DNA of 64,000 nt from Isosphaeraceae bacterium (GCA_965199885.1 CBDATT010000002.1:1-64000), one strand, 5' to 3'; positions 1 through 47,838 are shown, numbered from the stretch's first letter. Notes: generated by a model not told the origin, from the sequence alone. Numbers and translations: made by a program.

Positions 1-1330
1 GTAACAAATTTAAGGAGTTTTGGGGAATCGCGGCATTTGGGGGGAATGGCTTCAAGCCGTACGGTTGCGTCAAAGTTCCATCAGCTGCTCTAGGCAGAAA
101 GTTTACTGGATCAGTCCAACCACTATTCACTGGTGTTGTGATACCTGCCATGGTTTCTCTCCATGTTGGAAATCCCCACCAAGTTTGCTTAGCACTAGGG
201 GACACCAAATTATCACCTAAATCGAGTGCATTGTGGTTGTTTGAAATCCCGTAGTAAGTGTCATTGCCTGGATACAAGAAGTGATCCCATCCCAGACCGA
301 GACGATTAGGGTCAGGTGTAGAATACATGCCCGGATAAATGAACGGAAAGGCATAAATATCGTAAGAGCCGGGGTTTAACCTATTAGAGTTAGACGCTTC
401 ATTCATGAAAATATTGGGAGAATTAAAAGGATGGTTGCCAGCCCCATCTGTGTAAATCGTAGGATAATAGTCTGGAACACCATCGCCAATAATGTTTCCA
501 TTATTGTCAACATTATTGTCGTCAGGGGTATTATCAAAGTTATTGCGCGTTCCCTGGTTATCAGTAAAATCATTTGCAAAACGAGGACGAAATGCTCTAT
601 TCTCCCTGTTCGTCAAATCTTCGAGGTCATTTACTAATGGAATGGCGGACTTGGAGCCACCGGGCCTGCAAGATATATCGTTCATTCCTTGCCAGCTAAC
701 AATAGTGGAATTGCCAAAAGCCTGACTTTTAAAATAGTATTGGTACGTGTTTGGGCCAAACATCAAGGTTGAAAAGTCGCCTGCAACAGTGTTACCAATC
801 ACTATGGATTTCTGTCGTTCAGGTGAGACCAAGAATACTCTACGGTAAAGATTACCGTTCCGAAGAAAGTAGATGACTTCAGCCACTTGGCTAGTAATTG
901 AGGTTGGTTGGATGCTCTGATTCACAGAAGAGCCTTTGCTGCCTAACCATTGGCGTCCCGTGAAGAACTGACCATCCGGGGCGCGGGTGGTGAAGGCGAG
1001 GTAGTCGTCGGAGTCTTCCCCCTGGATGTCGGCGGGGGCGTTCTCGCCGTATTCGAAGTAGCCGCGCTTGTCGCGCGGGTCGTTCGGGGGCGTCATCTTG
1101 GCGGTCACGCCAGCCAGGTCGGACCGGATGATCGAGTCGATCTGGCGGAGGTTGACGTCGAGTTCCTGGATCGTCCGCGAAGCGCTCATGGCGCCGGTGG
1201 CGACCTGAAAGATCTGGACCAGGATCACCATCATCAGGATGACGAGGGCGACCACGACGAGCATTTCGACCAGAGTCACGCCCCGGCGGCGATCTTGAGG
1301 ACCGCTTGGGCGTCGGATCAGCGTCAGCAT
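1..1330 (-). CDS. prepilin-type N-terminal cleavage/methylation domain protein (large pseudopilin-like); C-terminal end lies beyond window start
   Basis: Minus-strand ATG at 1330-1328. My own translation gives MLTLIRRPSGPQDRRRG|VTLVEMLVVVALVILMMVILVQ, a class III prepilin signal with hydrophobic helix. The frame stays open to position 1 (443+ codons). It is absent from the ORF track only because no stop falls inside the window. It is the 5th of five tandem prepilin-type genes. Confidence 0.6.
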   Translation of the reverse strand, partial: MLTLIRRPSGPQDRRRGVTLVEMLVVVALVILMMVILVQIFQVATGAMSASRTIQELDVNLRQIDSIIRSDLAGVTAKMTPPNDPRDKRGYFEYGENAPADIQGEDSDDYLAFTTRAPDGQFFTGRQWLGSKGSSVNQSIQPTSITSQVAEVIYFLRNGNLYRRVFLVSPERQKSIVIGNTVAGDFSTLMFGPNTYQYYFKSQAFGNSTIVSWQGMNDISCRPGGSKSAIPLVNDLEDLTNRENRAFRPRFANDFTDNQGTRNNFDNTPDDNNVDNNGNIIGDGVPDYYPTIYTDGAGNHPFNSPNIFMNEASNSNRLNPGSYDIYAFPFIYPGMYSTPDPNRLGLGWDHFLYPGNDTYYGISNNHNALDLGDNLVSPSAKQTWWGFPTWRETMAGITTPVNSGWTDPVNFLPRAADGTLTQPYGLKPFPPNAAIPQNSLNLL

Positions 1331-1409
1331 ATCGACTCCTCCCCGGCGAGCCGGGTCATGACTGGGGACAGATGGGTCAGGCGAATGGGTGGTCGAGTTC
1401 ATCACGAGG

Positions 1410-2843
1410 TCAGTGAACCTCGAAGGTCCGGTTAAACACGTTGACCACGCTCGGCATAACCAGGGCGACGTTCAGGTGAAGCGGGTTGTTGCTGGCATCG
1501 ACCGCTGTTGCGGTCCGGACCCGCGAGTTCAGGATCACCACCATCGACCGATACCCCGAGGCACCCAGGACGAGGTCGGGGCCGGGGTCGGCGCGCTTGG
1601 CGACCTGGTACCAGTAATTCCGGACGAACGACGACTGCGTGGTGCCGACCCGGGTCCTGTAGCGCGAGACGACCCGCTCGTAGGTCGTATCGCAAATCCA
1701 GCCACCGACGCGGACCGGCGGGTCGGCCAGGGCGCTGTTCCAGCGCAGGAGGACGGCCCGGGCGTTCCCGCCGTAACCGTAAACCGCCTCGACGACCGTC
1801 TCGCCGGTCGGGGCGAACCCGAGCCCGTTGGGCAGGGGGTCGTAACCAAACGGGCGGCTATCGCAGACGACCACATCGCCGGTGAACTGGGCGCCGTTGC
1901 CGTTGGCGTCGATCTGCCGGCCGGTGAAGAACCAGCTAAAGCGATAATCCGCCTGTGGTCCCCCCGTGGAGAGGTCGGGCAGGAGCGGGCTTGACGAGGT
2001 CGCCTGCCGGAGAAGCAAGTTGGCAGGCAGGGCGGCCCCAACTGCCGAGGTCTTTGTCTCGGTGTCGCCGTAGACGATGTCGTCGATCGAGGTGAACACG
2101 TTCCCGGCCACATCGGCGGGCTGATACAGGAAGGTGGGCGGGTTGGCGCTCGGGTCGTCGTTGTGGTGCGTGAAGGCGAACTGCGGGGTCAGACCACCAC
2201 TATTCCAGGGGACGAAGTTGGTCAACCGCTGCAAGCCGTGGGCGCTGGCGATGTTGCCGTCGGGGTCCAGGTGGATGTACGGCGTCGTGGTCCCGAAGAT
2301 ACCCGACCCGAACCGGGCCTCGCCCAACATGTAAGTGGCGCTGCCACCCGTGACCAGGCCCGGCGGCACGATCAGCGTCGGGTCGTACGTCATCGTGCTG
2401 GTGGTCGAGTTGGGTGGGTTGGCGGGCAAGACGTGCGCCAGTTCACGCCAGAGCGGGTCGTAGCAGATCGGCAACCCGTTCGCCAGGCCGACATTGTTGG
2501 TCGGGATCAAGACGCTGCCCGACGCGATCGTGTTGACGTAGGTGCCATCGGGCAAGGCATCCTGCACGAACGGGTCGCGGGTGCCGTACCAGGTATTCAG
2601 GAACGACGGTTTGAAGAAGAGCGCCCGCGAGTCGATATCATCGGCGGCGTCCTCGTACGTCAGTCCAGCGCGACCCTGACGAGTCCCTTCGCGGAGGCGG
2701 AGCAACCCGAGCGGGAACAGGGTCGCCAGCGAGATCAACCCGACCCCCATGATCAGGATCGCGATCAGGATCTCGGTCAGGGTGATCCCGGACCGACGCG
2801 GGCGGCGTTGTCCCAGAGCGTAAGCAGTAGTGGCGGCGGTCAT
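1410..2843 (-). CDS. prepilin-type N-terminal cleavage/methylation domain protein (large pseudopilin-like, 477 aa)
   Basis: N-terminus MTAATTAYALGQRRPRRSG|ITLTEILIAILIMGVGL shows a basic leader, Gly at -1, Glu at +5 and a hydrophobic helix. It is Gly/Thr/Asn/Pro-rich. It overlaps the upstream gene by 4 nt (ATGA), consistent with operon coupling. Confidence 0.65.
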   Translation of the reverse strand: MTAATTAYALGQRRPRRSGITLTEILIAILIMGVGLISLATLFPLGLLRLREGTRQGRAGLTYEDAADDIDSRALFFKPSFLNTWYGTRDPFVQDALPDGTYVNTIASGSVLIPTNNVGLANGLPICYDPLWRELAHVLPANPPNSTTSTMTYDPTLIVPPGLVTGGSATYMLGEARFGSGIFGTTTPYIHLDPDGNIASAHGLQRLTNFVPWNSGGLTPQFAFTHHNDDPSANPPTFLYQPADVAGNVFTSIDDIVYGDTETKTSAVGAALPANLLLRQATSSSPLLPDLSTGGPQADYRFSWFFTGRQIDANGNGAQFTGDVVVCDSRPFGYDPLPNGLGFAPTGETVVEAVYGYGGNARAVLLRWNSALADPPVRVGGWICDTTYERVVSRYRTRVGTTQSSFVRNYWYQVAKRADPGPDLVLGASGYRSMVVILNSRVRTATAVDASNNPLHLNVALVMPSVVNVFNRTFEVH

Positions 2844-4378
2844 TGCGACTCCTTCGTGCCACTCTGGGCGTCGTAGTACGGGGCGCTGGTGTCGTAGGCG
2901 TCGAAGTTTTCGATCGAGTTGGAGACGATCTGCCCGGTCCGCGTGAACAGCGTCAAGAGCCGCCGTTCTCCCTTCAGGAACGTCGGGCCGGCATAGTTGG
3001 CGGCCCCCTGCGGCAGCGGCAGCAGGTACGTTTGCGGGTTCGATGTGTCGGTGTAATGCGGATTTACTTTTGGCTTGAGAAGGGTCGTCGTCCCGATCGC
3101 CTGCTCGCCCCAGAGGGGGGCCGAGAGGTCTTCGCGCTCGGTGATCCAGAAGTGGAGGAACGGCAAGTTGGCGACCGGCGAGTTGGTGTAATAGCCACCG
3201 CCACCCGACCCGGTCCCCTGTGTGACCACGCGCCCCGACTGGTCGATCAAAACATCGACATTTCCCGAGAACGGATCGACCGGTAACCGCGACCGTTCCG
3301 GCAGCATGATCGAGTAACCCGGCTGGCTCGATACTGCCGCGTTCCAGGTCGTCAGGTCGATAACGGCCCCCGCCGGCAGCGTGGTCTCAGCGGAGTTCGG
3401 CGAGACGACCGGGCGACGGATGATCGTGTAGTTCGCGTTCGCTGGCGGCGATGACGAGTAGATCCCTTCAAACACTTCTTTTTCGTACTCGTCACCGATG
3501 AGCATCTCGTGGGGACCATCAATGACCCCATCTTGGTCATCGTCGATCCCGTTGTGCCCAGGGTCGATATAGCCGTCGCCGTCGTTGTCGATCCCGTCGC
3601 ACCCTTCGTCGATCCAGCCGTCGCCGTCGTCGTCGATCCCGTTCATGAGGTTGAGGTATTCAAGCACCGGCGTGTAAATCGGCGTTGCGGGATTTGGCGA
3701 GACAGGTACGTCGCCGAAATAAGCCAGAGAGGTCTCGCTGGCCAGACTCCCATAGGAAATGTACCTTTCGGGGTTGGCTGGTATTGCCCCCGTCGTCGCC
3801 GTTGAGGTGTGCATCGGCCCAACGATGGTATAGAACGGCCCCGAATCATTGAAGCGGATCTTGTCGCCCTGACGGATGTTATATTGCCACCCGGTGGGAG
3901 CGTTTTGAATGTATGCAGTGCCGCTGCTGGTCACTGTCGAGGTAACCTCTGCAGCCCCGACCCGCAGGTATTGCACAGAAGCCCCGGTCGAGTCGATCAG
4001 GTTAGAGGCCACCGGCACAAACGTACCACCGTTGACAACCCCCTCATGGTAATCGGGTGCCGGCTCGATCGGGACGAACCGGTTCGAGGCCAATGGCGAG
4101 CCATCCTGGGCATTGTTGAGAAAGTTGAAGGTCGGATCAGGCAGGAGCCGGATACCGCGGGGGGCGTTGGCGCGGATGGCGGCGTCGCGGGCACCGGAGA
4201 GGGCGGCTTGCAGGACGCGGGCGGCCTCGCTGACCCGCCGCTCGTTGAGCGCGGGCAGGATGACCGGTAGCGCCACGGCGCTGATCAGGCCGATGATGGC
4301 GACCACCACCAGCAGTTCGATCAAGGTGAAGCCCCGGGGCCGGAGCCGGGGGGCGATGGGATGCGTCGTCGCGGGCAT
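2840..4378 (-). CDS. prepilin-type N-terminal cleavage/methylation domain protein with acidic DxDxDG calcium-binding-like repeats (512 aa)
   Basis: N-terminus MPATTHPIAPRLRPRG|[15 protein letters not shown]. An internal block GIDDDGDGWIDEGCDGIDNDGDGYIDPGHNGIDDDQDGVIDG is present. Its start overlaps the stop of the upstream gene by 1 nt (TGATG). Confidence 0.65.
   Translation of the reverse strand: MPATTHPIAPRLRPRGFTLIELLVVVAIIGLISAVALPVILPALNERRVSEAARVLQAALSGARDAAIRANAPRGIRLLPDPTFNFLNNAQDGSPLASNRFVPIEPAPDYHEGVVNGGTFVPVASNLIDSTGASVQYLRVGAAEVTSTVTSSGTAYIQNAPTGWQYNIRQGDKIRFNDSGPFYTIVGPMHTSTATTGAIPANPERYISYGSLASETSLAYFGDVPVSPNPATPIYTPVLEYLNLMNGIDDDGDGWIDEGCDGIDNDGDGYIDPGHNGIDDDQDGVIDGPHEMLIGDEYEKEVFEGIYSSSPPANANYTIIRRPVVSPNSAETTLPAGAVIDLTTWNAAVSSQPGYSIMLPERSRLPVDPFSGNVDVLIDQSGRVVTQGTGSGGGGYYTNSPVANLPFLHFWITEREDLSAPLWGEQAIGTTTLLKPKVNPHYTDTSNPQTYLLPLPQGAANYAGPTFLKGERRLLTLFTRTGQIVSNSIENFDAYDTSAPYYDAQSGTKESQ
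3515..3640 (-). repeat. degenerate repeats of gtcgatccc / gtcgccgtcg encoding D-rich DxDxDG units in prepilin protein 3
   Basis: Repeated gtcgatcccgtt...gccgtcgccgtcgtt units on the plus strand encode GIDDDGDGWIDEGCDGIDNDGDGYIDPGHNGIDDDQDGVIDG. Confidence 0.5.
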
Positions 4379-6132
4379 CAGCGAACTCCCGTGCTGGGGG
4401 CCGAGGTGTTGTGGTTGGTGATATCGTCCAGCCCGGCATCGGTCTGGAGGTAGACGGTAGTGCCACTACTGGCGTCGGGGATTTCGAAGAAATGGCCCGA
4501 GGTCGCGGCATTCAGGCGGGCAATCGGGTTGGATTGCGACGCCTGGTTCTCGATGAGGATCAGGGCCTGCGTGTTGGCCTGAATAGTGGTCGCCGGGGCG
4601 ATCGGGAATGTGAAATTGGACCCCGACGAATCCGCCGTCAGCGCTGAATAATCCTTCGAAAACTGGGCGACCCCAGGTTCTTTATCGGGACCTGATGACA
4701 GGATCAGGAACTTCGAGAAGTAGGCCCGGCGATCGTACACGCCCGTCCGGTCCCATCCGGTTCCCGCTGGCGGTGTCGGGCTGGCGACGGGGCTGGTGAC
4801 CGGATCGACCAGGATGCCGAAGTAGTGCATGAATCCGAGTGCGCCTTTGCTCTGGCCGGGTAAGCTGCCATCCGGAGCGGTGAATGTTGGGCCGTAAGGA
4901 TGCGCAGTCGGTGCAGTTGTGAACCCGGGGTTGGCCAGCGCGGTCCACCAGCCGGGCGAAACCAGATACTGGTTCGGGTCGAGCGGGTCGAGTTGGCGGG
5001 TCTCGCTGTAGCCGTTGTACGGGGCGCTCCCCTTCTGCGTGTCGGACGAGCCGGGGACCGCACCGTAGTAGATCGGCAAGCGGAAGAACTGGAGCGGTTC
5101 GCCCCAGGCATCGACAAACTCGGGGAGGCCATCGCCGTCGGTATCGGCCACTTCGCGGGCGGTGAACTCGTCGCGGTTGAAGACGCTGCCGAGCGGGCCG
5201 ACCCCTTCGACCAGGACGGCATAAAGCATCTCGGCCCGTGCTGTCTTGTGTGTGTGCAGGGCCAACCGAGCATTGACGGCGCTCAGAAAGCTGGCTCCTG
5301 CCGGGCTCCCGTTGACCAGAACCTCGCTTAGTTCGTCGATAAAGCCGTTGGCGTTGTTGTCGCCGCCATCGAACGCCTGCGTGACGTTGACGGTTGTGCC
5401 CGAGTTTGCCGTGATCAGGTCGCTTGCCGCCGCCGCGTACAGGTTTTTGTAGACACCACCCGCCGCCGCGAACGAGGCGCCAAACATCCCTGTCACCGAG
5501 AGTTGGTTGTTATCGTTCGGATAAGGGTTGGTGATATTCGTTGAGGAGTCGCCATATCCTTCAAACAAGCCGCCCGCAGTCGTGTAGGGCGCTGTCGGCG
5601 AAGCGATGTTCGGATCACGGACAAAACCAATCCCCAACGGTACGACATAATTAGACAGACTCGTCCCACCAACAGGAAAGGCTGATGCAGCGAAGTTGAG
5701 CGGGTAAAACGCGCTGAAGGCGGCCCCATCAGTCGTGGCCGAGTTGAGATAAAAGACGTCGGGCAGTTCCGACCGGAGGTAGTCATACTGGGCGATCACC
5801 TGCGCCCGCCGCTCATCCGAGCCACCCGACGACACTGAACCGACCGGAATATAGTTACCACTGGCCAGGAAGTTGATCGCCGCCAGGTAGCGATGCGTCT
5901 GGTTGACCGGTGCCGTCGCGTTGAGCAGCGCATCGAGCCGGTCGGCGACGCCGGTTTCGAGTTTGGTGATGATTGTCTGCGTGGCGCGTTCCTCAGCACG
6001 ACGGACACCGTCGGCGGCGGCAACCAGGATCAACGAGATGATCAGCCCGATGATCGCGATCACCACCAGGAGTTCGATCAACGTGAAACCCGATGGGCTT
6101 CGCTTGTGCTCGTCGCGGGGGTATCGTCGCAT
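4378..6132 (-). CDS. prepilin-type N-terminal cleavage/methylation domain protein (about 584 aa)
   Basis: The ORF track begins at 6348. The prepilin motif MRRYPRDEHKRSPSG|[15 protein letters not shown] begins at the internal Met (codon 6132-6130), which has an AAGGAA Shine-Dalgarno-like sequence upstream. The upstream 216 nt of the ORF coincide with a conserved terminator-like hairpin, so the start was moved. Confidence 0.6.
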   Translation of the reverse strand: MRRYPRDEHKRSPSGFTLIELLVVIAIIGLIISLILVAAADGVRRAEERATQTIITKLETGVADRLDALLNATAPVNQTHRYLAAINFLASGNYIPVGSVSSGGSDERRAQVIAQYDYLRSELPDVFYLNSATTDGAAFSAFYPLNFAASAFPVGGTSLSNYVVPLGIGFVRDPNIASPTAPYTTAGGLFEGYGDSSTNITNPYPNDNNQLSVTGMFGASFAAAGGVYKNLYAAAASDLITANSGTTVNVTQAFDGGDNNANGFIDELSEVLVNGSPAGASFLSAVNARLALHTHKTARAEMLYAVLVEGVGPLGSVFNRDEFTAREVADTDGDGLPEFVDAWGEPLQFFRLPIYYGAVPGSSDTQKGSAPYNGYSETRQLDPLDPNQYLVSPGWWTALANPGFTTAPTAHPYGPTFTAPDGSLPGQSKGALGFMHYFGILVDPVTSPVASPTPPAGTGWDRTGVYDRRAYFSKFLILSSGPDKEPGVAQFSKDYSALTADSSGSNFTFPIAPATTIQANTQALILIENQASQSNPIARLNAATSGHFFEIPDASSGTTVYLQTDAGLDDITNHNTSAPSTGVR

Positions 6133-6283
6133 GGCGTCCGCCGTTCCTTTGTTCGCTGCCCGTCGCTGCGCTACTGACTCACTCACCAATGAACCATTCC
6201 GCCCGATCCGGGGCGGATCGACTCCAAGCCGACCCGCCCCACCCTGCGATCCGAACCGTTTCCTACGGAACGAGTCAGTGCCG

Positions 6284-6336
6284 AAAAAGAGGGACAGGCA
6301 CCGCTCCTGCGTCGCTTGAGCCAGTCCCCTTTTTCT
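6284..6336. terminator. conserved bidirectional terminator-like hairpin (copy 1): A-tract, 9-bp GC stem, conserved 21-nt loop, T-tract
   Basis: AAAAAGAGGGACAGGC-ACCGCTCCTGCGTCGCTTGAG-CCAGTCCCCTTTTTC lies immediately 3' of the minus-strand prepilin gene (stop at 6364) and 5' of the next gene (start at 6132). Confidence 0.5.
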
Positions 6337-6363
6337 CGACCCCTCCACGCGCCAGGAAATCGC

Positions 6364-7545: not shown

Positions 7546-7770
7546 CGGTCGAAGCTCCGCGGAAGGTGGTTCAGGAGGAGAAACAGGTTTACCCAGGACA
7601 ACGAAACCAGTGTGTTTTGGGGACGACCCGGGCCAGACCCGCCGGGCGGCACCGGGGGCCGCTCCGCTCCGCGCCGGCAGCCGGATCGCGGCGGAAGGTG
7701 AATCAACCGGGTCGATTTCAGGGTGACCAGGCAACGAAGGGAGGATCAACCGCGCGGAGCGAGGACGTCC

Positions 7771-7798
7771 GGCCCGTGATCTCGCGAGATTACGGGCC
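7771..7798. promoter_or_regulatory. 28-nt near-perfect palindrome between gspF/pilC stop and prepilin gene start
   Basis: GGCCCGTGATCTCG|CGAGATTACGGGCC (13 of 14 pairs complementary). It could be an RNA hairpin or a dimeric operator. Confidence 0.3.
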
Positions 7799-7860
7799 GA
7801 TCAGCCCGGCGTGACGACCAATTCGGCCGCCACGCCTCGGGTTTTGCCAGGGTCGTCGGC

Positions 7861-9111
7861 TCAGCCCGACAGCTTGCTGATCAGCGAGATCAGCGGCAGG
7901 AACAACGCGATGACGATGAACCCGATGATCCCACCCAGGACCACGATCATGATCGGTTCAAGCAAGCTCACCAGCGACTCGACCAGCGTTTCGACTTCTT
8001 CGTCATAGTTGTCGGCAATCTTGTTGAGCATCGTGTCGAGGTCGCCCGTTTCCTCACCGACGTCGATCATGTTGACCACGATGTCGTCGACGATCCGCGC
8101 TTCGCGGAGCGGCTGCGCGATCGTTTCCCCTTCGCGGATACTCTCGTAGATCCGGGTAAACGCCCGCTCGAACACCATGTTCCCCGCCGTGTCGCGGACG
8201 ATGTTCAGCGACTCCAAAATCGGCACGCCCGACTGCACCAGCGTCCCCAGCGTCCGCGTCGTCCGGGCCACCGTCGACTTCTCGACGATCTGCCCCATGA
8301 CCGGAATCAAGAGCAAGATCCGGTCAAGGATGTACGCTCCCGTCTTGTTCCGATAGATCAATTTAATCATGATCACAAACAAGACCGGTGCCAGGATGAC
8401 AAGATAAAACTTGTCGACCACGACGTGGCTGGCCACGATCAGGAATTTGGTCATCCCCGGCAGGTCGACGCCGAAGTCTTTGAAGATCGCCTCGAACTTC
8501 GGAATGATGAAGTACAGGATGAACCCGACGATCAAGCACGCGACCGAGATGACGACGATCGGGTAAACCATCGCCGACTTGATCCGCCGCTTCAGCGTTT
8601 GCGACTTTTCCTTGAAGTCCGCCAGGCGCTGCAAGATCGCTTCCAGGGCACCGCCCGCCTCACCCGCCTTGATCATGTTGCAATAGAGCTTGTCGAACGC
8701 CTTGGGGTGCTTGGCGAAGGCGTCGGAGAGCGTGGCTCCCGACTCGATATCTTCAACCACGTCTTCCAAAGCGTTCTTCAAGACCCCCGGCTTCGACTGG
8801 CCGTGGAGGATCTTCAGGCTCCGCAGGATCGGCAGACCGGCGTCTTGCAGCGTCGAAAGCTGACGGGTGAACGTGCAAAGCTGCTTCGTCGAGATCTTGC
8901 CGATCGTGAACGACTTCTTCTTCCCCTTGCGCCCGCCCTTCTTGGCGCCGGCGGGTCCCTTTTTCTTCGCCTTGGCCCGCTCGGAGATCTTCGTGACGAA
9001 GAACCCCTTCTGGCGGATCAGTTGCTGCGCTTCTTCCTGGGTGCTGGCGTCGATGGTGTCCTTCACCTCGCGCCCGGTATTATCCATCGCCTCATATTGA
9101 AACGTCGGCAT
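7861..9111 (-). CDS. type II secretion system protein F / type IV pilus platform protein PilC family
   Basis: 416 aa with two GspF-type repeats and three TM segments. It has an unusual Lys-rich insertion, AKAKKKGPAGAKKGGRKGKKK, in the N-terminal cytoplasmic domain. Confidence 0.85.
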   Translation of the reverse strand: MPTFQYEAMDNTGREVKDTIDASTQEEAQQLIRQKGFFVTKISERAKAKKKGPAGAKKGGRKGKKKSFTIGKISTKQLCTFTRQLSTLQDAGLPILRSLKILHGQSKPGVLKNALEDVVEDIESGATLSDAFAKHPKAFDKLYCNMIKAGEAGGALEAILQRLADFKEKSQTLKRRIKSAMVYPIVVISVACLIVGFILYFIIPKFEAIFKDFGVDLPGMTKFLIVASHVVVDKFYLVILAPVLFVIMIKLIYRNKTGAYILDRILLLIPVMGQIVEKSTVARTTRTLGTLVQSGVPILESLNIVRDTAGNMVFERAFTRIYESIREGETIAQPLREARIVDDIVVNMIDVGEETGDLDTMLNKIADNYDEEVETLVESLVSLLEPIMIVVLGGIIGFIVIALFLPLISLISKLSG

Positions 9112-9211
9112 CCTCGGGACTCCTTCGCTCGGTCTGGGTCGCGGTGGTCGGTGACAGTGTCAGCAGGAAGTGATTCAATGATTGAAACGAATCAGGCCAG
9201 GCCGGGGCGGC

Positions 9212-10930
9212 TCACTCGTCGTCGAGCATGGTTTCGCGGATGATCTCTTCGATCGACGTTTGCCCGGTGTGGATCGCTTCGAGCCCCGACTCGCGGAGGG
9301 TTCGCATCCCGTACTTCCGGCACTCGTCGCGGAAAGCGTCGAGCGACGCTTCGGAGACGACCATCTCGCGGAGGTGTTCGTTCATGACCAGGAGTTCATA
9401 GATCCCCATCCGCCCCTTGTACCCGGTGTTGTTGCACTTCTCGCAACCCTTGCCGTAGTAGAACTTTTTCGACGCGGCGACCTCGGGGGTCATCCCCAGC
9501 TCCATCGCCACTTCGGGACTCGGGGTGAACTCGGTCCGGCAGTTGGTGCAGATCCGCCGGACGAGCCGTTGCGCGAGCACCGCCTCGATCGTCGCGGTGA
9601 TCAAGAACGTCGGGATACCCATGTCACGGAGCCGGGTGATCGCCGACGGCGCGTCGTTGGTGTGCAGCGTCGTGAAGACGATGTGCCCGGTCAACGACGC
9701 CTGAATCGCGATCTCGGCGGTTTCAAGGTCGCGGGTCTCACCGACGAGGATCTTGTCGGGGTCTTGCCGCAGGATCGCCCGCAAGCAGGCGGCGAACGTC
9801 ACCCCGATCTCGCCGTTGATCGGCACCTGGATCAGGCCGTCGATGTCGTACTCGACCGGCTCCTCGGTGGTGATGATCTTTTCTTCCGGCGTGTTCAACT
9901 CGTTGAGCGTGGCGTAGAGCGTCGTCGTCTTGCCCGACGACGTCGGCCCGGTCACCAGGATGATCCCGTTCGGCTTGTGGATGATCTCGCGCCAGACCAC
10001 CAGCGTATCCTCGGGCATGCCGATCTTGCGGATGTCGAGGTTGACCACGGTCCGGTCGAGGATTCGCAGCACGACGCTCTCACCGAACAGGGTCGGCAGG
10101 GTCGAAACGCGGATATCGACCTGGTTACCGCCGATCGCCAGCTCGATCCGGCCGTCCTGCGGCAGCCGACGTTCGGCGATGTCGAGGTTCGACATGACCT
10201 TGATGCGCGACGAGATCGCGGGGGCCAGGTGGCGGGGCGGCGGCACGAGTTCATAGAGGATGCCGTCCACCCGGTACCGCATCTTGTACTCGTCTTCAAA
10301 CGGCTCGAAGTGGATGTCCGACGCCTTGTCCTTGATGGCGAGCAGGAGCACCATGTTCAGGAGCTTGCGAACGGGCGCGGCCTCGGCCATTTCCTCGATC
10401 GCTTCGAGGTCGATCGTGTTTTCGTTCCGGTTCTGGAACTGCGACAGCCCCTTGTCGTTTTCGATCTGCTTGACGACGTCCTGAATCGACTCCTGCTTGC
10501 CGGCATAGAGGCGCGTGATCGCCGCCATCACGTCGGATTCCGCCGCGATCACCCCTTTGACGTCGACGCCGAGGAACGACTTGATGCTGTCGAGCGTCTG
10601 CGGGTCGCGGGGGTCGGCCATCGCGACGGTGACGCTCTTGTCCTTCTTGTGCTGCGAGACCGGGACGATCTTGAACGTCGTCGCCATCGTCTCGTTGACC
10701 AGCTCGGTCAACTCGGCGGGCACCGCCATCTCACCGAGCCGAACCACCTTCATGCCGAACTGTTCGCCGAGCGCCTTGAGCACCTGATCCTCGGTGACCA
10801 CGCCGAGGCGCACCGCGACCTTGCCCAGCAGCTCGTTATCCGACCGCTTCTGCTCTTCGAGCACCTTCCAGAGGGTATCGTCGCTGATGTACCCCATGTC
10901 GACCAGGATCGTGCCGATTCGCCGAGCCAT
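9212..10930 (-). CDS. GspE/PilB-family secretion ATPase with N-terminal T2SSE_N domain
   Basis: 572 aa. Walker A box GPTSSGKTTTLYA, Asp box, His box, and a tetracysteine motif CTNC...CEKC are present. The N-terminal region resembles the GspE N-domain. Confidence 0.85.
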   Translation of the reverse strand: MARRIGTILVDMGYISDDTLWKVLEEQKRSDNELLGKVAVRLGVVTEDQVLKALGEQFGMKVVRLGEMAVPAELTELVNETMATTFKIVPVSQHKKDKSVTVAMADPRDPQTLDSIKSFLGVDVKGVIAAESDVMAAITRLYAGKQESIQDVVKQIENDKGLSQFQNRNENTIDLEAIEEMAEAAPVRKLLNMVLLLAIKDKASDIHFEPFEDEYKMRYRVDGILYELVPPPRHLAPAISSRIKVMSNLDIAERRLPQDGRIELAIGGNQVDIRVSTLPTLFGESVVLRILDRTVVNLDIRKIGMPEDTLVVWREIIHKPNGIILVTGPTSSGKTTTLYATLNELNTPEEKIITTEEPVEYDIDGLIQVPINGEIGVTFAACLRAILRQDPDKILVGETRDLETAEIAIQASLTGHIVFTTLHTNDAPSAITRLRDMGIPTFLITATIEAVLAQRLVRRICTNCRTEFTPSPEVAMELGMTPEVAASKKFYYGKGCEKCNNTGYKGRMGIYELLVMNEHLREMVVSEASLDAFRDECRKYGMRTLRESGLEAIHTGQTSIEEIIRETMLDDE

Positions 10931-11183
10931 GCATCCACCCTTCTTCCGCGCGGGCCAATCGTGTCCGGACTTTTGCTTGCCGCGATCAGGTCAGATTGAG
11001 TTGAATTCGAGCAGCCCGGACCAGAACGGCCCAGGCGAGGACTAGAATGAAGTGGCGAGTCCGGGGAAGACTCGCCGCGAGGCAAACCTGGATTGCTGTT
11101 GGACTTTGGACGCCTGGCGACCCCAAAAAGTTTCCGGCGTGTTGCTGAATTGCATCAACCGGCCGTCACCGAGCCGCCGAGTT

Positions 11184-12293
11184 TCAATCGTCCTCTTCCT
11201 CCGCCTCGTCGTCGTCCATGATCCCCTTTTTGGCGTTGTCGATGCGTCCCCGCAACTCTTCCGGTTTCCGCGACTTGTACATCGCTTCCTCTTCCGTGAT
11301 CAGCCCCTGCTTCCACAGGTTATACAGGCTGTCATCGAGGAGGATCATCCCGTGTTTGCGCCCGGTCTGAATCGACGAGTCGATCCGGTACGTCTTGTTT
11401 TCGCGGATCAGGTTCGAGATGGCGGGGGTGACGACGAGCATCTCGTACGCGGCGACCAGCCCCTTGGGGATGCGGGGCACAAGCGCCTGCGCGAGCACCC
11501 CGAGGATGGCGACGGAAAGCTGCGTGCGGATCTGGTCCTGCTGTTCCTTCGGGAACACGTCGATGATCCGGTTGACCGTTCCTTCAGCCGAGTTCGTGTG
11601 CAGCGTCCCGAAGACGATGTGCCCGGTCTCGGCGGCGGTGACGGCGGCCTGAATCGTCGCGAGGTCACGCATTTCGCCGACGAGGATGATGTCGGGGTCC
11701 ATCCGGAGGGCACGCCGAATCGCCTCGGGGAAGTCGGGAACGTCGATCCCGATCTCGCGCTGGTTGATCAGCGACTTCTTGTGCTTGTGGTAGTACTCGA
11801 TCGGGTCTTCGATCGTGATGATGTGCCGGTCCATGTTGTCGTTGATCCAGTTGATCATCGACGCCAGGGATGTCGTCTTGCCCGACCCCGTCGGCCCCGT
11901 CACGAGGATCAAACCGCGCGGCCGTTGAATCAACTGCTCCATGACGGCCGGCAACCCGAGTTGCTGGAACGTCAGGAATTCGTTCGGCACCCGTCGGAGG
12001 ACCAGGCCGATATTGCCGCGCTGCTTGAAGATGGCAACGCGGAACCGGGCGGCATCACCGAAGGCGAACCCAAAGTCGCACCCGCCGACTTCCTGCAACT
12101 CCTGCTGGCAGCGTTCGGGGGTGATCGACTTCATCAGGGCCGAGGTGTCCGACGACTCAAGCACCTTTGTATTGAGCGGGACCATGTGCCCGCCCAGCCG
12201 GAGCATCGGCTTTGAGCCGACGGTCAGGTGGAGGTCGCTGGCCTTTTGGGTCACGACCGTTTGCAACAACTTGTCGATCAGCAGCGTTCCCAT
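11184..12293 (-). CDS. pilT: twitching motility / pilus retraction ATPase PilT family
   Basis: 369 aa with no N-terminal GspE domain. Walker A box GPTGSGKTTSLASMIN and the PilT-type AIRRALRMDPDIILVGEMRD and His box are present. It has an acidic C-terminal tail DDDEAEEEDD. Confidence 0.85.
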   Translation of the reverse strand: MGTLLIDKLLQTVVTQKASDLHLTVGSKPMLRLGGHMVPLNTKVLESSDTSALMKSITPERCQQELQEVGGCDFGFAFGDAARFRVAIFKQRGNIGLVLRRVPNEFLTFQQLGLPAVMEQLIQRPRGLILVTGPTGSGKTTSLASMINWINDNMDRHIITIEDPIEYYHKHKKSLINQREIGIDVPDFPEAIRRALRMDPDIILVGEMRDLATIQAAVTAAETGHIVFGTLHTNSAEGTVNRIIDVFPKEQQDQIRTQLSVAILGVLAQALVPRIPKGLVAAYEMLVVTPAISNLIRENKTYRIDSSIQTGRKHGMILLDDSLYNLWKQGLITEEEAMYKSRKPEELRGRIDNAKKGIMDDDEAEEEDD

Positions 12294-12632
12294 GAGCGAG
12301 TCGAACCTTTCGCGGAGACTCCGCCAACATCAACCCCACCAGCGCGAGTCGGGGGGTTGACTTTGTCCTGTCGACTAGATGTCCACCGAAAAGGCACCAC
12401 TTTCCGATCGGAAGTGGCGGACCGAGAGAACGATCGGTCCACACCTGATTATTTCGGTGGACAAGGGGAGGATCAAGCACGCCCCCCGAGCGAATTTCGT
12501 CGTAAGCGGCGACGACGGCTCGAATCTCAGGGCAGATCCGAGCCGTCGCGGGGGTCTTGTGGGACGACCCAAACCGGGATCATCCCGAGCAATCCAATGA
12601 GTAGAGACAGTTGGTATTGCGTGCGGTCCGAA

Positions 12633-14366
12633 TCATGTGCCGGTTTCGGACATCGACTCGTGGTGGGTGATCCGGAGGATCTCGTCGATCGTCGTCAGCC
12701 CCTTGAGAGCCTTGATGATCCCGTCCTCGAACAACGTGTGCATCCCCTGTTTCCGAGCGGCTTTACGGATGACGTTGGTCGGTTCCCCCTTGAACGTCAT
12801 GTCGCGGATGGTGCTGGTCATCACCATCAACTCATGGATACCCATCCGGCCCCGGTAGCCCGTCTTGTTGCAGTTCGAGCACCCCTTGCCCTTCATGAAG
12901 TTCGCCTTCTTGGCGATCTCGGGACGGATGCCGATCGACTTCAAAACGTGCGCGGCGGGCTCGTACCGAACCTTGCACTTCGGGCAGATTTTCCGGACCA
13001 ACCGCTGCGCCATGATCCCCATAACCGAGCTGGCGACGAGGAACGGTTGCACGCCGATATCGACCAGTCTTGTTACAGCACTGGGCGCATCGTTCGTGTG
13101 CAGTGTACTGAAAACCAAGTGTCCTGTCAGGCTGGCCTGGATCGCCGTGTTGGCCGTCTCCTCGTCGCGGATTTCCCCGACCAGGAGGATGTTCGGATTT
13201 TGCCGGAGCATGGCCCGGATGATCCGCGCGAACGTCATGCCGATCTTGGCCTTGACCTCGCACTGGTTGACGCCGGGGAGGTAGTACTCGACCGGGTCCT
13301 CGGCGGTGATGATCTTGACGTCGGGGCGGTTCAACTCGTTGAGCGCGGCGTACAGGGTGGTCGTCTTGCCCGACCCCGTCGGCCCGGTCACGAGCAAGAT
13401 CCCGTTCGGCCGTTTGATCAGAGCCTGGAACCGCTTCCAGTTGTCGTCGGAGAATCCCATGTCGCGTAGACTGACCTTGATGTTATCGCGGTCCAGGATT
13501 CGCATGACGACCGACTGGCCATGGTTGGTCGGCAGGATCGAGACGCGGAGGTCGATGTCCTTGCCGGCGACGTGGATCTTGATCCGGCCGTCCTGCGGGC
13601 GCCGTTTTTCGGCAATGTCGATCGACCCCATGATCTTGATACGACTGACCATCGCCCCGAGGAGCCGGCGCGGGGCCGAGTCGCGCTCGACGCAAACGCC
13701 GTCGATCCGGTAGCGAATTCGGACCCGGTCGCCGAACGGTTCGATGTGGATGTCGGAGGCACGGGTGACGACCGCTTCCTGAATGATCAGGTGGACCAAC
13801 CGGATGACCGGCGCGTCGCCTTCTTCGAGCGTGTTTGCCGACGACCCGCTCTTGCCGGCCCCTGGACCTTCGTCGGAGAAGTCGATCGCGGTGTCGGTAA
13901 ATTCCGAGATCATCGAGTCGATCGACTCGGATTCCTGCGACTTGCCGCCATAATACTTGTTGATCGCTTCGAGGATCGCTTCCTTTGACGCCAGCGCCAC
14001 GTCGATCTCGCGGTTCAGGACGAACCGGAGTTTGTCGACCGTCTCGAAGTCGTTCGGGTTGGCCATGATGACCCGGATCATCCCGTTGACCGACGAGAGC
14101 GGCATCACGATGTTTTCGCGCGCGAGCGACTCAGGGACGAGTTCGAGCACCGACGCCGGGATGTCGATATCACGGAGCGCGATGAAATCCATGCTGAACT
14201 GCTCAGCCTTGGCCTTCATCACATCGTCGGTATCAACGTAACCGAGTTTCGCCAGCGCATCTTCCAGCGGCATGTTGCCCATCCGCTGGGCTTCCTTGAG
14301 CTGGTCGGGTCCGATCACCCCGCGCTTGACGAGGATATCGCTCCACTCACGAGCTTGCTTGGCCAT
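12633..14366 (-). CDS. second GspE/PilB-family secretion ATPase (paralogue of the 9212-10930 gene)
   Basis: Walker A box GPTGSGKTTTLYAA and a tetracysteine motif CPKC...CSNC. The start was moved to the Met at 14366, which has GGAGGA 6 nt upstream. Together with the other ATPases it flanks pilT. Confidence 0.8.
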   Translation of the reverse strand: MAKQAREWSDILVKRGVIGPDQLKEAQRMGNMPLEDALAKLGYVDTDDVMKAKAEQFSMDFIALRDIDIPASVLELVPESLARENIVMPLSSVNGMIRVIMANPNDFETVDKLRFVLNREIDVALASKEAILEAINKYYGGKSQESESIDSMISEFTDTAIDFSDEGPGAGKSGSSANTLEEGDAPVIRLVHLIIQEAVVTRASDIHIEPFGDRVRIRYRIDGVCVERDSAPRRLLGAMVSRIKIMGSIDIAEKRRPQDGRIKIHVAGKDIDLRVSILPTNHGQSVVMRILDRDNIKVSLRDMGFSDDNWKRFQALIKRPNGILLVTGPTGSGKTTTLYAALNELNRPDVKIITAEDPVEYYLPGVNQCEVKAKIGMTFARIIRAMLRQNPNILLVGEIRDEETANTAIQASLTGHLVFSTLHTNDAPSAVTRLVDIGVQPFLVASSVMGIMAQRLVRKICPKCKVRYEPAAHVLKSIGIRPEIAKKANFMKGKGCSNCNKTGYRGRMGIHELMVMTSTIRDMTFKGEPTNVIRKAARKQGMHTLFEDGIIKALKGLTTIDEILRITHHESMSETGT

Positions 14367-24258: not shown

Positions 24259-24417
24259 GGGTATCTCCTGCGCGGACGAGGGGGCAAGGAACCTGGATAA
24301 ATGATGGCCAGATTAACACCAAAGGCCCCACGCGGCGACTGGCAAACCGGTGGGTGGGCGGTTACTCTGAGAGCAGGAACTGAGCCCGATCACCGTTGCC
24401 GACGCTGAGGGTCGCTC

Positions 24418-47776: not shown

Positions 47777-47838
47777 ACGCCGTCCCCCCGCAAGTCTCGC
47801 CGGTGTCGGTTCAGAACTGGACCGACACTGACGCTGCG

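What the first reader, a model, noticed from the sequence alone, without database searches (positions are those of the whole stretch)
1..14366. T2SS/T4P-like operon with three secretion ATPases, one platform protein and five consecutive giant prepilin-type proteins
Gene order on the minus strand is GspE/PilB-like ATPase, PilT, second GspE/PilB-like ATPase, GspF/PilC, then five prepilin-type genes of 394 to 584+ aa. Canonical major/minor pseudopilins and pilins are 130-330 aa. The prepilin genes are tightly packed, with 4-nt and 1-nt start/stop overlaps. Each has a basic leader ending in Gly followed by (F/I/V)TL(I/V/T)E and a hydrophobic helix. No secretin (GspD/PilQ), prepilin peptidase (PilD/GspO) or PilMNOP/GspCLM genes occur in the operon or anywhere in the window. 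Pairing two PilB/GspE paralogues with a PilT suggests an extension/retraction machine whose fibre is built from very large subunits. That is not a described T2SS or T4aP architecture.
Basis: partly seen in the sequence, partly recalled or inferred. Interest (0 to 1): 0.7.

Follow-up and report, generated by a model that had tools for sequence, protein, structure and literature searches.

The report
Planctomycete pilus machine with giant pilins
This is a real, conserved planctomycete operon for a type IV pilus-like machine whose pilin subunits are three to fifteen times the usual size; a Planctopirus operon with the same gene order was reported essential for growth, but nobody has worked out what the machine does.

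Summary
On the minus strand of window 1-14366 lie PilB-like ATPase 1, PilT, PilB-like ATPase 2, PilC, then five prepilin genes (393, 584, 512, 477 and >443 aa). All five score above Pfam's N_methyl threshold. No secretin, prepilin peptidase or PilMNOP/GspCLM gene occurs in the window.

The operon runs past position 1. In relatives, prepilin 5 is about 660 aa. It is followed by a 2,200-2,400-aa protein with a pilin-like N-terminus lacking Glu5 (as in GspK, from my own knowledge), then a DUF1559 prepilin.

The order is kept in 13 loci from Isosphaeraceae and more distant relatives. The motor genes are 57-92% identical, the prepilins 26-54%.

Both large ATPases are closest to T4aP PilB. The AlphaFold model of prepilin 1 (pLDDT 89) has a GspG-like core plus about 250 extra residues. 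None of the five is DUF1559.

Planctopirus limnophila carries an operon with the same gene order, Plim_0410-0401. Tn-seq called nine genes essential and PilT unclear. I could not confirm that match by sequence.

Best reading: a planctomycete-specific type IV filament machine, with prepilin 1 as shaft and the others plus the giant as tip complex. It is a new variant of a known kind.

The parts
12633..14366 (-). PilB1: PilB/GspE-family extension ATPase (577 aa). It has an MshEN-type N-domain with a degenerate c-di-GMP motif, Walker A GPTGSGKT, and two CxxC pairs.
   Evidence: Pfam T2SSE E 8.5e-135 and MshEN 4.2e-19. NCBIfam GspE 617.7 bits and PilB 604.6 bits, both just under the equivalog cutoffs. 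Best PDB relatives are T4aP PilB chains 5zfr, 6olj and 5tsg. Motifs.
14491..14518 (-). Sigma-70-like promoter candidate upstream of pilB1 (TTCACG-16-TAGAAT).
   Evidence: Consensus scan. This is a weak consensus match only.
12448..12476 (-). Conserved internal promoter candidate TTGATC-17-AATAAT in the pilB1-pilT spacer.
   Evidence: Scan hit. CTTGAT and ATAAT are invariant in five Isosphaeraceae loci.
12356..12384 (-). Conserved block GGACATCTAGTCGACAGGACAAAGTCAAC downstream of that promoter. It may be an operator or a 5'-UTR element.
   Evidence: Alignment A5. The degenerate pattern recurs at the same place in L002, L003, L005 and L006. No Rfam match.
11184..12293 (-). PilT retraction ATPase (369 aa). 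Walker A is intact and it carries an AISNLIRE motif.
   Evidence: TIGR01420 456.9 bits against a cutoff of 319.1. Motifs. 73-92% identical in related loci.
9212..10930 (-). PilB2: second PilB-type extension ATPase (572 aa) with an intact tandem MshEN c-di-GMP-binding motif.
   Evidence: T2SSE E 2.1e-137. NF053729 c-di-GMP motif 53.2 bits against a cutoff of 38. Best PDB relatives are Geobacter PilB 6olj and 5tsg at 540 bits, against GspE at 427 bits. 43% identical to PilB1. The duplication is old: each paralogue is 58-62% identical to its own counterpart in the distant loci L011 and L014, and 40-46% to the other.
7861..9111 (-). PilC/GspF platform protein (416 aa).
   Evidence: T2SSF E 2.8e-67 in two repeats. 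GspF TIGR02120 404.7 bits against a cutoff of 424.
6364..7545 (-). P1: prepilin of 393 aa (mature 374 aa, 39 kDa, one Cys). It has a GspG-like core with about 250 extra residues and is the candidate shaft subunit.
4378..6132 (-). P2: prepilin of 584 aa (mature 60 kDa, no Cys). It is an accessory member: absent in Singulisphaera, present in distant relatives.
   Evidence: N_methyl 30 bits. Orthologues in L001-L006, L010, L011 and L013. Missing from L008.
2840..4378 (-). P3: prepilin of 512 aa, GspH/FimU-like at the N-terminus, with three acidic DxDxDG repeats at residues 249-287.
   Evidence: N_methyl 32.2 bits. GspH TIGR01708 E 9.1e-13 over residues 15-91, and Verru_Chthon D TIGR02596 E 2.5e-10; both are below cutoff. 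Repeats.
1410..2843 (-). P4: prepilin of 477 aa, in the GspI/PilV position.
   Evidence: N_methyl 21.8 bits. PilV TIGR02523 E 9e-4, N-terminal 25 residues only. Orthologues aligned in A2. The single-sequence AF2 model failed beyond the helix.
1..1330 (-). P5: prepilin cut by the window edge (443 of about 660 aa), in the GspJ/PilW position.
   Evidence: N_methyl 22.1 bits. Full-length orthologues are 600-710 aa. In every related locus that extends far enough it is followed by the giant gene.

Best explanation
This is a Planctomycetota-specific member of the type IV filament superfamily.

**Proposed mechanism.**
1. A prepilin peptidase encoded elsewhere cleaves all the prepilins after the leader Gly.
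2. A tip or priming complex forms first in the inner membrane. It is made of P3 (H-like), P4 (I-like), P5 (J-like) and the 2,200-2,400-aa K-like protein encoded just beyond position 1. That giant protein lacks Glu5 and caps the complex. P2 is an accessory member.
3. Two non-redundant PilB-type ATPases act on the single PilC platform and polymerise the 39-kDa GspG-like subunit P1 underneath the tip. PilB2 is probably gated by c-di-GMP through its MshEN motif.
4. PilT depolymerises the fibre.

The result would be an unusually thick, retractable fibre carrying a tip protein of about 250 kDa. It would be used to bind surfaces or polymers and pull them toward the cell.

**Shown here.** Gene content and order; the family assignments of the four motor proteins; the class III signal peptides; the GspG-like core of P1; conservation of the whole set.

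**Inferred.** The shaft and tip roles; the H/I/J/K mapping; c-di-GMP control; the cellular function; the equivalence to the essential Plim_0410-0401 operon.
For: **Motor module.**
- HMM matches.
- Both PilBs are closer to solved T4aP PilB than to GspE.
- PilT passes its curated cutoff and keeps AISNLIRE.
- PilB2 passes the c-di-GMP motif cutoff.

**Pilins.**
- All five pass N_methyl and have Gly(-1) and Glu(+5).
- P3 matches GspH to residue 91.
- The giant's N-terminus, RRRG|IVLVL..., has no Glu5 in Tundrisphaera, Singulisphaera or locus L013. From my own knowledge of T2SS, GspK is the one pseudopilin that lacks Glu5.
- The globular parts of P1-P5, the giant and DUF1559 are mutually unrelated by BLAST. 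They are distinct families in a fixed order, not tandem copies.

**Conservation.**
- The same order appears in L001-L003, L005-L008 and L010-L014.
- Position-by-position orthology holds down to 61% PilC identity.

**Link to Planctopirus limnophila.**
- PMC10632474 lists Plim_0410 (T2SS E), 0409 (twitching motility), 0408 (T2SS E), 0407 (T2SS protein) and six planctomycete-only hypothetical proteins. All are essential by Tn-seq except PilT, which is "unclear".
- Lengths back-calculated from the insertion indices are 565/370/570/419 aa for the four motor genes and 1,599 aa for Plim_0401. This is the same pattern as here.
- P. limnophila has 12-nm pili-like fibres on its large crateriform structures, and they bind dextran (PMC5394234).
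Against: - No secretin, alignment proteins or peptidase were found near the operon in any locus. How a fibre of this size would cross the outer membrane is therefore unexplained.
- Only P1 has a usable structure model. The P4 model failed (pLDDT 35).
- Profiles of P3, P4, P5 and the giant hit solved structures only through the N-terminal helix or not at all. The I/J/K assignments therefore rest on gene order and N-terminal features.
- Nothing shows that P1 is abundant or is the shaft subunit. A small major pilin elsewhere in the genome cannot be excluded.
- The Plim equivalence was not checked by sequence.
- Essentiality fits a secretion or envelope role at least as well as an adhesive pilus.
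Confidence: 0.55

Rival explanations
1. It is a T2SS-like secretion or envelope-biogenesis machine. P1 would form a short periplasmic endopilus, capped by the H-I-J-K-like complex. That endopilus would push folded substrates out, or place surface proteins such as the many DUF1559 prepilin-like proteins. Loss would be lethal because the envelope fails.
For: - P1's best structural matches are the major pseudopilins EpsG and PulG rather than T4a pilins.
- P1 has one Cys, so it cannot have the C-terminal disulfide that, from my own knowledge, is typical of T4a pilins.
- The minor-pilin order is G, H, I, J, K-like, with the last lacking Glu5.
- A DUF1559 prepilin is conserved right after the giant gene in L003, L006, L007, L008 and L010.
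- The P. limnophila operon with the same gene order is essential. T2SS genes also score as essential in Vibrio cholerae Tn screens (abstract of PMC7771236).
Against: - A conserved PilT with an intact motif sits inside the operon. From my own knowledge, T2SSs lack a retraction ATPase.
- Both ATPases carry MshEN-type N-domains and resemble PilB more than GspE.
- No GspC, L, M or D lies nearby.
- A 250-kDa cap is hard to fit inside a secretin vestibule.
Confidence: 0.2
2. It is an ordinary T4aP. The shaft would be a small PilA encoded elsewhere, and all five large prepilins plus the giant would be minor or "modular" tip pilins and adhesins, analogous to FimU-PilVWX-PilY1-PilE.
For: - Modular minor pilins with grafted domains are widespread, up to 860 aa (PMC8179133).
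- T4aP genes are normally scattered. Gemmataceae genomes are reported to hold PilQ, PilM, PilN, PilO and PilD (PMC7397252), and Singulisphaera is reported to hold PilD/TadV (PMC11279305).
- The prepilins evolve fast, as exposed tip proteins do: 26-54% identity against 57-92% for the motor genes.
Against: - P1 sits first after pilC and has a GspG/major-subunit-like N-terminus and core.
- P1 keeps a near-constant length of about 370-430 aa across a very large family.
- No small pilin gene is present in any of the loci examined.
- This reading would leave six or seven minor pilins, more than any described T4aP set that I know of.
Confidence: 0.2
3. It is two machines in one operon. PilB1 and PilB2 would each drive assembly of a different filament on the same PilC platform, for example P1 fibres and DUF1559-type fibres. 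This would parallel the wide and narrow pili of Thermus made by one machinery.
For: - The PilB duplication is ancient and both copies are retained.
- Both copies are essential in P. limnophila.
- Only PilB2 keeps the c-di-GMP motif.
- A separate conserved promoter lies between pilB1 and pilT.
- DUF1559 has 68 paralogues in P. limnophila, two of them essential.
Against: - There is no direct evidence for two filament types from this locus.
- There is a single platform protein and a single tip set.
- Both ATPases being essential is equally explained by a hetero-oligomer or by sequential priming and elongation roles.
Confidence: 0.05

Closest known systems
Type IVa pilus machinery (PilB-PilT-PilC of Myxococcus xanthus, Geobacter metallireducens, Thermus thermophilus)
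   Same: - PilB-type extension ATPases with an MshEN/GSPII N-domain and a tetracysteine motif.
- A PilT that passes the curated family cutoff.
- A PilC platform protein.
- The pilB-pilT-(pilB)-pilC gene order.
- Prepilins with Gly(-1) and Glu(+5).

   Different: - Two PilB paralogues share one PilC.
- No PilMNOPQ or PilD lies nearby.
- The candidate major subunit is 374 aa with no disulfide, and its core is closest to GspG.
- The minor pilins are 458-650 aa mature, and there is a pilin-like protein of about 2,400 aa.
Type II secretion pseudopilus (GspG major subunit; GspH-I-J-K tip complex, PDB 3ci0)
   Same: - The P1 core superposes on EpsG and PulG.
- The P3 N-terminus matches GspH.
- The order is G, H, I, J, K-like.
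- The last and largest member lacks Glu5, like GspK.
   Different: - PilT is present.
- The ATPases are PilB-like.
- No GspC, L, M or D is present.
- Every subunit is 3-8 times larger than its T2SS counterpart.
- No HMM match to GspI, J or K.
- There is an extra member, P2.
Planctopirus limnophila operon Plim_0410-Plim_0401 (Rivas-Marin et al. 2023, PMC10632474)
   Same: - The annotated order is T2SS-E, twitching-motility protein, T2SS-E, T2SS protein, then six planctomycete-restricted hypothetical proteins.
- The inferred lengths are 565/370/570/419 aa for the motor genes, and the last gene is 1,599 aa.

   Different: - It comes from a different order of the phylum.
- The six unknown genes were not described as pilins.
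- Homology to P1-P5 and the giant was not verified by sequence here.
- The inferred subunit sizes (about 350-470 aa) are smaller than in this window.
Verru_Chthon cassette proteins A-D (TIGR02600, TIGR02598, TIGR02599, TIGR02596; bioinformatically defined, function unknown)
   Same: - From my own knowledge, it is a cassette of prepilin-type proteins plus one very large protein in the PVC superphylum.
- P3 hits family D and the Tundrisphaera P5 hits family C at the N-terminus.
- UniProt names the Singulisphaera giant "Verru_Chthon cassette protein A".
   Different: - All hits are far below the curated cutoffs and cover only the N-terminal helix.
- Four giant homologues gave no NCBIfam hit to that family even at E<=10.
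Modular minor pilins and tip adhesins (S. sanguinis PilB/PilC, CofB, TcpB, ComZ, PilY1)
   Same: A pilin module carries large extra modules, which are thought to be displayed at the filament tip (PMC8179133).
   Different: - Here every pilin in the set is enlarged, including the GspG-like one.
- The extra parts match no known domain.
- The largest, at 2,200-2,600 aa, is about three times the largest modular pilin catalogued there (860 aa).

Membership tests
Type IV filament superfamily | PilB/GspE-family hexameric assembly ATPase | tested here: met
   T2SSE E 8.5e-135 and 2.1e-137. Walker A and B, His box and CxxC pairs are intact.
Type IV filament superfamily | PilC/GspF polytopic platform protein | tested here: met
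   T2SSF E 2.8e-67 in two repeats.
Type IV filament superfamily | Subunits with a class III signal peptide (short basic leader, Gly -1, Glu +5, hydrophobic alpha-1N) | tested here: met
   N_methyl is above the gathering score for all five. Motifs listed.
Type IV filament superfamily | Dedicated prepilin peptidase (PilD/GspO, A24) | tested here: inconclusive
   Absent from the 64-kb window and from the flanks of related loci. The whole genome could not be scanned. PilD/TadV is reported for Singulisphaera Ch08 (PMC11279305).
Type IVa pilus (T4aP) | PilT retraction ATPase | tested here: met
   TIGR01420 456.9 bits against a cutoff of 319.1. AISNLIRE motif present.
Type IVa pilus (T4aP) | PilB equivalog (TIGR02538) | tested here: not met
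   627.9 bits (PilB2) and 604.6 bits (PilB1) against a cutoff of 675.65. Even so, the nearest solved relatives are T4aP PilBs.
Type IVa pilus (T4aP) | PilMNOP alignment complex and PilQ secretin | tested here: inconclusive
   None in the window or within 10 kb of the operon in Tundrisphaera, Singulisphaera or L010. The rest of the genome was not searchable.
Type IVa pilus (T4aP) | Small major pilin (about 130-210 aa) with a C-terminal disulfide-bonded D-region | tested here: not met
Type II secretion system | GspE and GspF equivalogs | tested here: not met
   GspE TIGR02533 gives 617.7 and 611 bits against a cutoff of 630.25. GspF TIGR02120 gives 404.7 bits against 424. Both are marginally below.
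Type II secretion system | GspG major pseudopilin | tested here: inconclusive
Type II secretion system | GspH, I, J and K minor pseudopilins | tested here: inconclusive
   - P3 matches GspH at 48.5 bits against a cutoff of 80.
- There are no HMM or PDB-profile hits for I, J or K.
- The order, and the absence of Glu5 in the last member, agree with the T2SS pattern.
Type II secretion system | GspC/L/M assembly platform, GspD secretin, and no retraction ATPase | tested here: not met
   No GspC, L, M or D in the window. PilT is present and conserved.
DUF1559 (PF07596, SBP_bac_10) planctomycete prepilin-like proteins | PF07596 domain following the N_methyl motif | tested here: not met
   - P1-P5 give no PF07596 hit at E<=0.01, and the full-length Tundrisphaera P5 gives none at E<=0.1.
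- hhalign of the P1 family against DUF1559 proteins aligns only the N-terminal 83 columns.
- True DUF1559 genes do hit the model: window 49439-50377 and the gene after the giant.
Verru_Chthon cassette (TIGR02596/02598/02599/02600) | Scores above the curated cutoffs for the four families | tested here: not met
   - Family D: 40.8 bits against a cutoff of 70, for P3.
- Family C: 15.6 bits against 256.5, for the Tundrisphaera P5.
- Family B: no hit.
- Family A: no hit for four giant homologues.
Modular pilins (pilin module plus grafted module) | A recognisable pilin fold plus an additional folded region | tested here: met
   Met for P1 only. About 92-113 residues superpose on GspG, and the remaining roughly 250 residues are modelled with confidence. 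P2-P5 could not be tested, because the AF2 run without an alignment failed.

The most novel reading that the evidence does not exclude
This operon builds the 12-nm fibres that emerge from planctomycete crateriform structures.

- The fibre would be a retractable type IV filament with a shaft of 35-40-kDa GspG-like subunits.
- Its cap would be a 170-280-kDa pilin.
- It would use a planctomycete-specific outer-membrane conduit instead of a secretin.
- It would be essential because it is the cell's route for capturing and importing polymers or for building its surface.
Probability: 0.2. Interest if true: 0.9.

Novelty: new variant of a known kind. Interest (0 to 1): 0.68.

Why it matters
**What is unusual.** Type IV filaments are among the best-studied bacterial nanomachines. 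Their subunits are almost always small, at 10-20 kDa.

Here every subunit is enlarged:
- the shaft candidate is 39 kDa;
- the minor pilins are 49-72 kDa;
- the GspK-like member is about 256 kDa.

The set is kept in order across deeply diverged planctomycetes. It is driven by two non-redundant PilB ATPases plus a PilT.

**Link to essentiality.** The gene order matches the Plim_0410-0401 operon, whose genes were scored essential in the only planctomycete Tn-seq study I found in the searchable library. That study did not recognise the six unknown genes as pilins.

**What becomes testable if the equivalence holds.**
- What the crateriform-structure fibres are made of.
- How these bacteria bind and take up polymers.
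- What the huge DUF1559 prepilin family is for.
- How a filament of 40-kDa subunits and a 250-kDa cap is assembled and crosses an outer membrane.

Tried and rejected
**Searches and computations that gave nothing.**
- An exact look-up of P4 in the assembly index found nothing.
The single-sequence run gave pLDDT 35, usable only for the N-terminal helix. The GspI-like fold of P4 is therefore untested.
- The afdb50 fold library was unavailable. Foldseek against PDB gave no significant hit for P1.
- Profiles of P3, P4, P5 and the giant against PDB sequences matched only the pilin N-terminal helix or nothing.
- The giant protein has no Pfam or NCBIfam hit.
- The UniProt label "Verru_Chthon cassette protein A" could not be reproduced.
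- I tried to reach Planctopirus by searching with the most distant P1 representative, P0370. Named hits stayed within Isosphaeraceae and unnamed metagenome contigs. The representative proteins carry no taxon names.
- The Singulisphaera transcriptome supplement holds no per-gene data for the locus.
- No Rfam family matches in window 1-15200.

**Ideas rejected.**
- The prepilins are not DUF1559 proteins.
- They are not tandem duplicates of one pilin gene. Their globular parts are unrelated.
- A terminator or attenuator after P1 is not good evidence for major-pilin status. The 231-nt spacer folds well (z -2.0), but the spacer is 65 nt, 77 nt and a 4-nt overlap in relatives.
- The ExbB/ExbD genes (Tundrisphaera) and BamA gene (Singulisphaera) downstream are not conserved, so they are not part of the system.

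Full report
**1. What is in the sequence**

ORF listing and translation give nine co-directional minus-strand genes between positions 1 and 14366:
- PilB1 (12633-14366)
- PilT (11184-12293)
- PilB2 (9212-10930)
- PilC (7861-9111)
- five prepilins: P1 (6364-7545, 393 aa), P2 (4378-6132, 584 aa), P3 (2840-4378, 512 aa), P4 (1410-2843, 477 aa) and P5 (2-1330, 443 aa, truncated by the window edge)

Pfam and NCBIfam assign the two large ATPases to T2SSE, with E 8.5e-135 and 2.1e-137. Each also has an MshEN N-domain. The small ATPase belongs to the PilT family (456.9 bits, cutoff 319.1). The membrane protein is T2SSF. All five remaining proteins pass the gathering score for N_methyl.

Each prepilin has a 15-19-residue basic leader ending in Gly, then Glu at +5, then a hydrophobic helix. 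The 4-nt overlap (P3/P4) and the 1-nt overlap (P2/P3) are real.

GC3 is 0.74-0.90 in the called frames.

**2. What is absent**

I scanned 29 other window ORFs against Pfam, covering all ORFs I called of 190 aa or more. There is no secretin, no A24 prepilin peptidase and no PilM/N/O/P or GspC/L/M. The upstream flank holds housekeeping genes: amidohydrolase, an SPFH protein, glyoxalase and pyruvate phosphate dikinase. One ordinary DUF1559 prepilin lies far away at 49439-50377.

**3. The operon continues beyond the window**

A scan of species-representative genomes with P4 returned six loci from Tundrisphaera sp. TA3 and from Isosphaeraceae and Planctomycetota MAGs. tblastn shows complete synteny in the five full-length loci. 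PilB1, PilT, PilB2 and PilC are 74-95% identical there. P1-P5 are only 32-54% identical in full-length matches, with short conserved segments up to 69%.

In the complete Tundrisphaera genome, P5 is 663 aa. It is followed by a 2,397-aa ORF, then a 403-aa DUF1559 prepilin, then ExbB/ExbD.

Singulisphaera Ch08 has the same layout without P2. Its giant is 2,209 aa, followed by a DUF1559 prepilin and then BamA. Locus L010 has all five prepilins, a 2,421-aa giant and a DUF1559 prepilin, followed by unrelated genes.

The conserved unit is therefore:

pilB1 - pilT - pilB2 - pilC - P1 - (P2) - P3 - P4 - P5 - giant - DUF1559

Whatever follows differs from genome to genome.

More distant metagenome loci keep the same order, with PilC only 61-64% identical:
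- L011/L012: prepilins of 319, 342, 377, 429 and 600 aa, then a giant cut by the contig end.
- L013: prepilins of 356, 334, 371, 349 and 485 aa, then a giant of at least 1,750 aa.
- L014: the four motor genes, then a 304-aa P1.

Each protein is most similar to its positional counterpart in the window. Each PilB paralogue is 58-62% identical to its own counterpart and only 40-46% to the other. The duplication therefore predates these lineages.

**4. The motor is of the T4aP type**

Against solved structures, both PilB1 and PilB2 are closest to T4aP PilB from Geobacter and Myxococcus and to Thermus PilF. GspE/EpsE score 40-110 bits lower.

The equivalog models for PilB, GspE and GspF are all missed by small margins, so the proteins belong to neither curated subfamily.

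All three ATPases keep Walker A, Walker B and the His box. Both PilBs keep the tetracysteine motif. PilT keeps AISNLIRE.

PilB2 passes the curated MshE-type c-di-GMP motif model (53.2 bits against 38). PilB1 does not (26.1 bits).

**5. The pilins**

*P1.* The P1 family has 288 near-full-length homologues of 370-430 aa. An exhaustive profile search found 1,472 cluster representatives (50% identity clusters) at E<=1e-30. That score cannot come from the helix alone.

P1 has one cysteine, so it cannot have the T4a C-terminal disulfide. It is not a DUF1559 protein: Pfam gives no hit, and profile-profile alignment stops after the first 83 columns.

*The others.*
- P3 matches GspH through residue 91 (E 9e-13, sub-threshold). 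It carries three acidic DxDxDG repeats.
- P4 has a weak PilV-like N-terminus.
- P5 has only generic pilin N-terminal hits.
- The giant has no Pfam, NCBIfam or PDB-profile hit at all.

The giant's N-terminus is a basic leader ending in Gly and followed by IVLVL or VVLIL, so it has no Glu5. This holds in Tundrisphaera, Singulisphaera and L013. From my own knowledge, among T2SS pseudopilins only GspK lacks Glu5. GspK is also the largest pseudopilin and caps the tip complex.

The globular parts of P1-P5, the giant and DUF1559 are unrelated to one another by BLAST. They are distinct families held in a fixed order.

Taken together, the order reads G-like, extra, H-like, I-position, J-position, K-like. 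Only the G and H assignments have direct support. I, J and K are inferred from position and N-terminal features. My attempt to model P4 failed for lack of an admissible alignment.

**6. Link to the literature**

*Planctopirus limnophila operon.* Rivas-Marin et al. 2023 (PMC10632474) single out the locus Plim_0410-Plim_0401. Four genes are annotated T2SS protein E, twitching motility protein, T2SS protein E and T2SS protein. They are followed by six hypothetical proteins restricted to Planctomycetes. Operon-mapper calls an operon from Plim_0409 to Plim_0402.

Their supplementary tables score every gene as essential except PilT, which is "unclear" (insertion indices 0-0.0056, against 0.022 for PilT).

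I had no Plim sequences. However, the printed insertion indices can be inverted to gene lengths. This gives 565, 370, 570 and 419 aa for the four annotated genes, which are the sizes of PilB1, PilT, PilB2 and PilC. For Plim_0401 the only solution is 1,599 aa. The smallest solutions for Plim_0406, 0405, 0404 and 0403 are 352, 370, 360 and 468 aa. These are close to the sizes in L013 and L011.

This is strong circumstantial evidence that the Plim operon and the window operon are the same system. It remains an inference.

*Fibres.* Boedeker et al. [quoted passage not shown] These fibres bind dextran. Separate 6-nm fibres form the stalk. The proteins that make up either fibre are not named in that paper or in the 2025 review.

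A rough scaling, which is my own inference, assumes a similar helical rise and a diameter proportional to the square root of subunit mass. It puts a filament of 39-kDa subunits near 10 nm.

*Modular pilins.* Raynaud et al. 2021 (PMC8179133) show that modular minor pilins are widespread, up to 860 aa. Large pilins as such are therefore not new.

I found no paper in the searchable library that describes this operon as a pilus system.

**7. Interpretation**

The best-supported reading is a planctomycete-specific type IV filament machine. It has a T4aP-type motor (two PilB, one PilT, one PilC). Its pilin set is arranged like the T2SS G-H-I-J-K set, but every member is greatly enlarged.

In this reading P1 is the shaft. 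P3, P4, P5 and the giant, with P2, form the tip. The peptidase and any outer-membrane conduit are encoded elsewhere or are lineage-specific.

The main rivals are:
- a T2SS-like endopilus for secretion or surface-protein placement, which would fit the essentiality and the conserved DUF1559 gene;
- an ordinary T4aP whose small major pilin lies elsewhere;
- two filaments sharing one platform.

PilT, the PilB-like ATPases and the lack of GspC/L/M/D argue against a classical T2SS. P1's position, N-terminus, GspG-like core and constant size argue for a shaft role but do not prove it.

**8. Novelty and score**

The components belong to a well-known superfamily, so this is not categorically new. The combination has not been described:
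- two PilBs with one PilC and one PilT;
- an enlarged GspG-like subunit;
- four enlarged minor pilins;
- a 2,200-2,600-aa Glu5-less pilin-like protein;
- a trailing DUF1559 prepilin.

It is conserved across deeply diverged lineages and probably essential. I rate it a new variant of a known kind, with interest 0.68.

**9. Regulatory details seen on the way**

The 339-nt pilB1-pilT spacer carries a sigma-70-like promoter (TTGATC-17-AATAAT, window 12448-12476). Its core bases are invariant in five Isosphaeraceae loci. A second conserved block lies at 12356-12384. This agrees with the Operon-mapper call that the Planctopirus operon starts at pilT. No Rfam family matches the region.

Noticed in passing
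window 12356-12476 (minus strand): The pilB1-pilT spacer has a promoter-like TTGATC-17-AATAAT whose core bases are invariant in five Isosphaeraceae loci. About 60 nt downstream is a second conserved block, GGACATCTAGTCGACAGGACAAAGTCAAC, with repeated GACA units. It may be an operator or leader element. It has no Rfam match, and the degenerate pattern was not found in the distant loci L011 and L014.
   Followed up: partly
window 49439-50377 (+) and 51034-52659 (+): An ordinary DUF1559 prepilin (N_methyl plus PF07596) lies about 650 nt upstream of a CBM2 + GH18 chitinase-like protein. This is of interest because of published suggestions that planctomycete pili help attachment to chitin.
   Followed up: no
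L007 17361-18572; L008 16792-18018; L010 17438-18661; also L003 and L006: A DUF1559 prepilin of about 400 aa always directly follows the giant gene. The Tundrisphaera and Singulisphaera copies are 44% identical. The genes after it differ between genomes. It therefore looks like the last gene of the conserved unit.
   Followed up: partly
window 1-2000: GC falls to 55% here, against 60-71% across the rest of the window. The region is the Asn/Asp-rich C-terminal part of P5 that lies within the window (for example NNFDNTPDDNNVDNNGNIIGDG). It may be a hypervariable or recently exchanged segment.
   Followed up: no
P3 residues 249-287 (window about 3518-3634, minus); also P1 143-151, P2 258-267 and 330-338, giant 393-401 in L007: There are acidic DxDxDG-type motifs, three in tandem in P3 (DDDGDGWIDE, DNDGDGYID, DDDQDGVID). 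They resemble calcium-binding loops. From my own knowledge, calcium sites matter in GspG and PilY1.
   Followed up: no
L013 202-3421; L014 10001-10915: In the most distant loci several prepilins have Ala instead of Gly at position -1 (RSA|FTLLE, RWA|FTLIE, RRA|FTLVE). From my own knowledge this is unusual for prepilin peptidase substrates.
   Followed up: no
window 11054-11076 (minus) and 6133-6363 (minus): A 9-bp GC-rich hairpin followed by a T-poor tail lies between pilT and pilB2. The 231-nt P1-P2 spacer is strongly structured (MFE -100.5 kcal/mol, z -2.0). The P1-P2 spacer length is not conserved in relatives.
   Followed up: partly
window 23653-24312 (-) and 24409-25146 (+): Two divergently oriented Uma2-family putative restriction endonuclease genes lie side by side.
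   Followed up: no
window 57645-58514 (+) and 58573-62445 (+): An ECF-type sigma factor gene is immediately followed by a 1,290-aa Ser/Thr protein kinase with C-terminal WD40 beta-propellers. The region has 70-71% GC.
   Followed up: no
window 15024-16214, 35042-37000, 46562-47872, 52752-53849, 54287-55405, 55569-57026: Six sizeable ORFs (365-652 aa) with coding-like GC3 have no Pfam match at E<=0.001.
   Followed up: no
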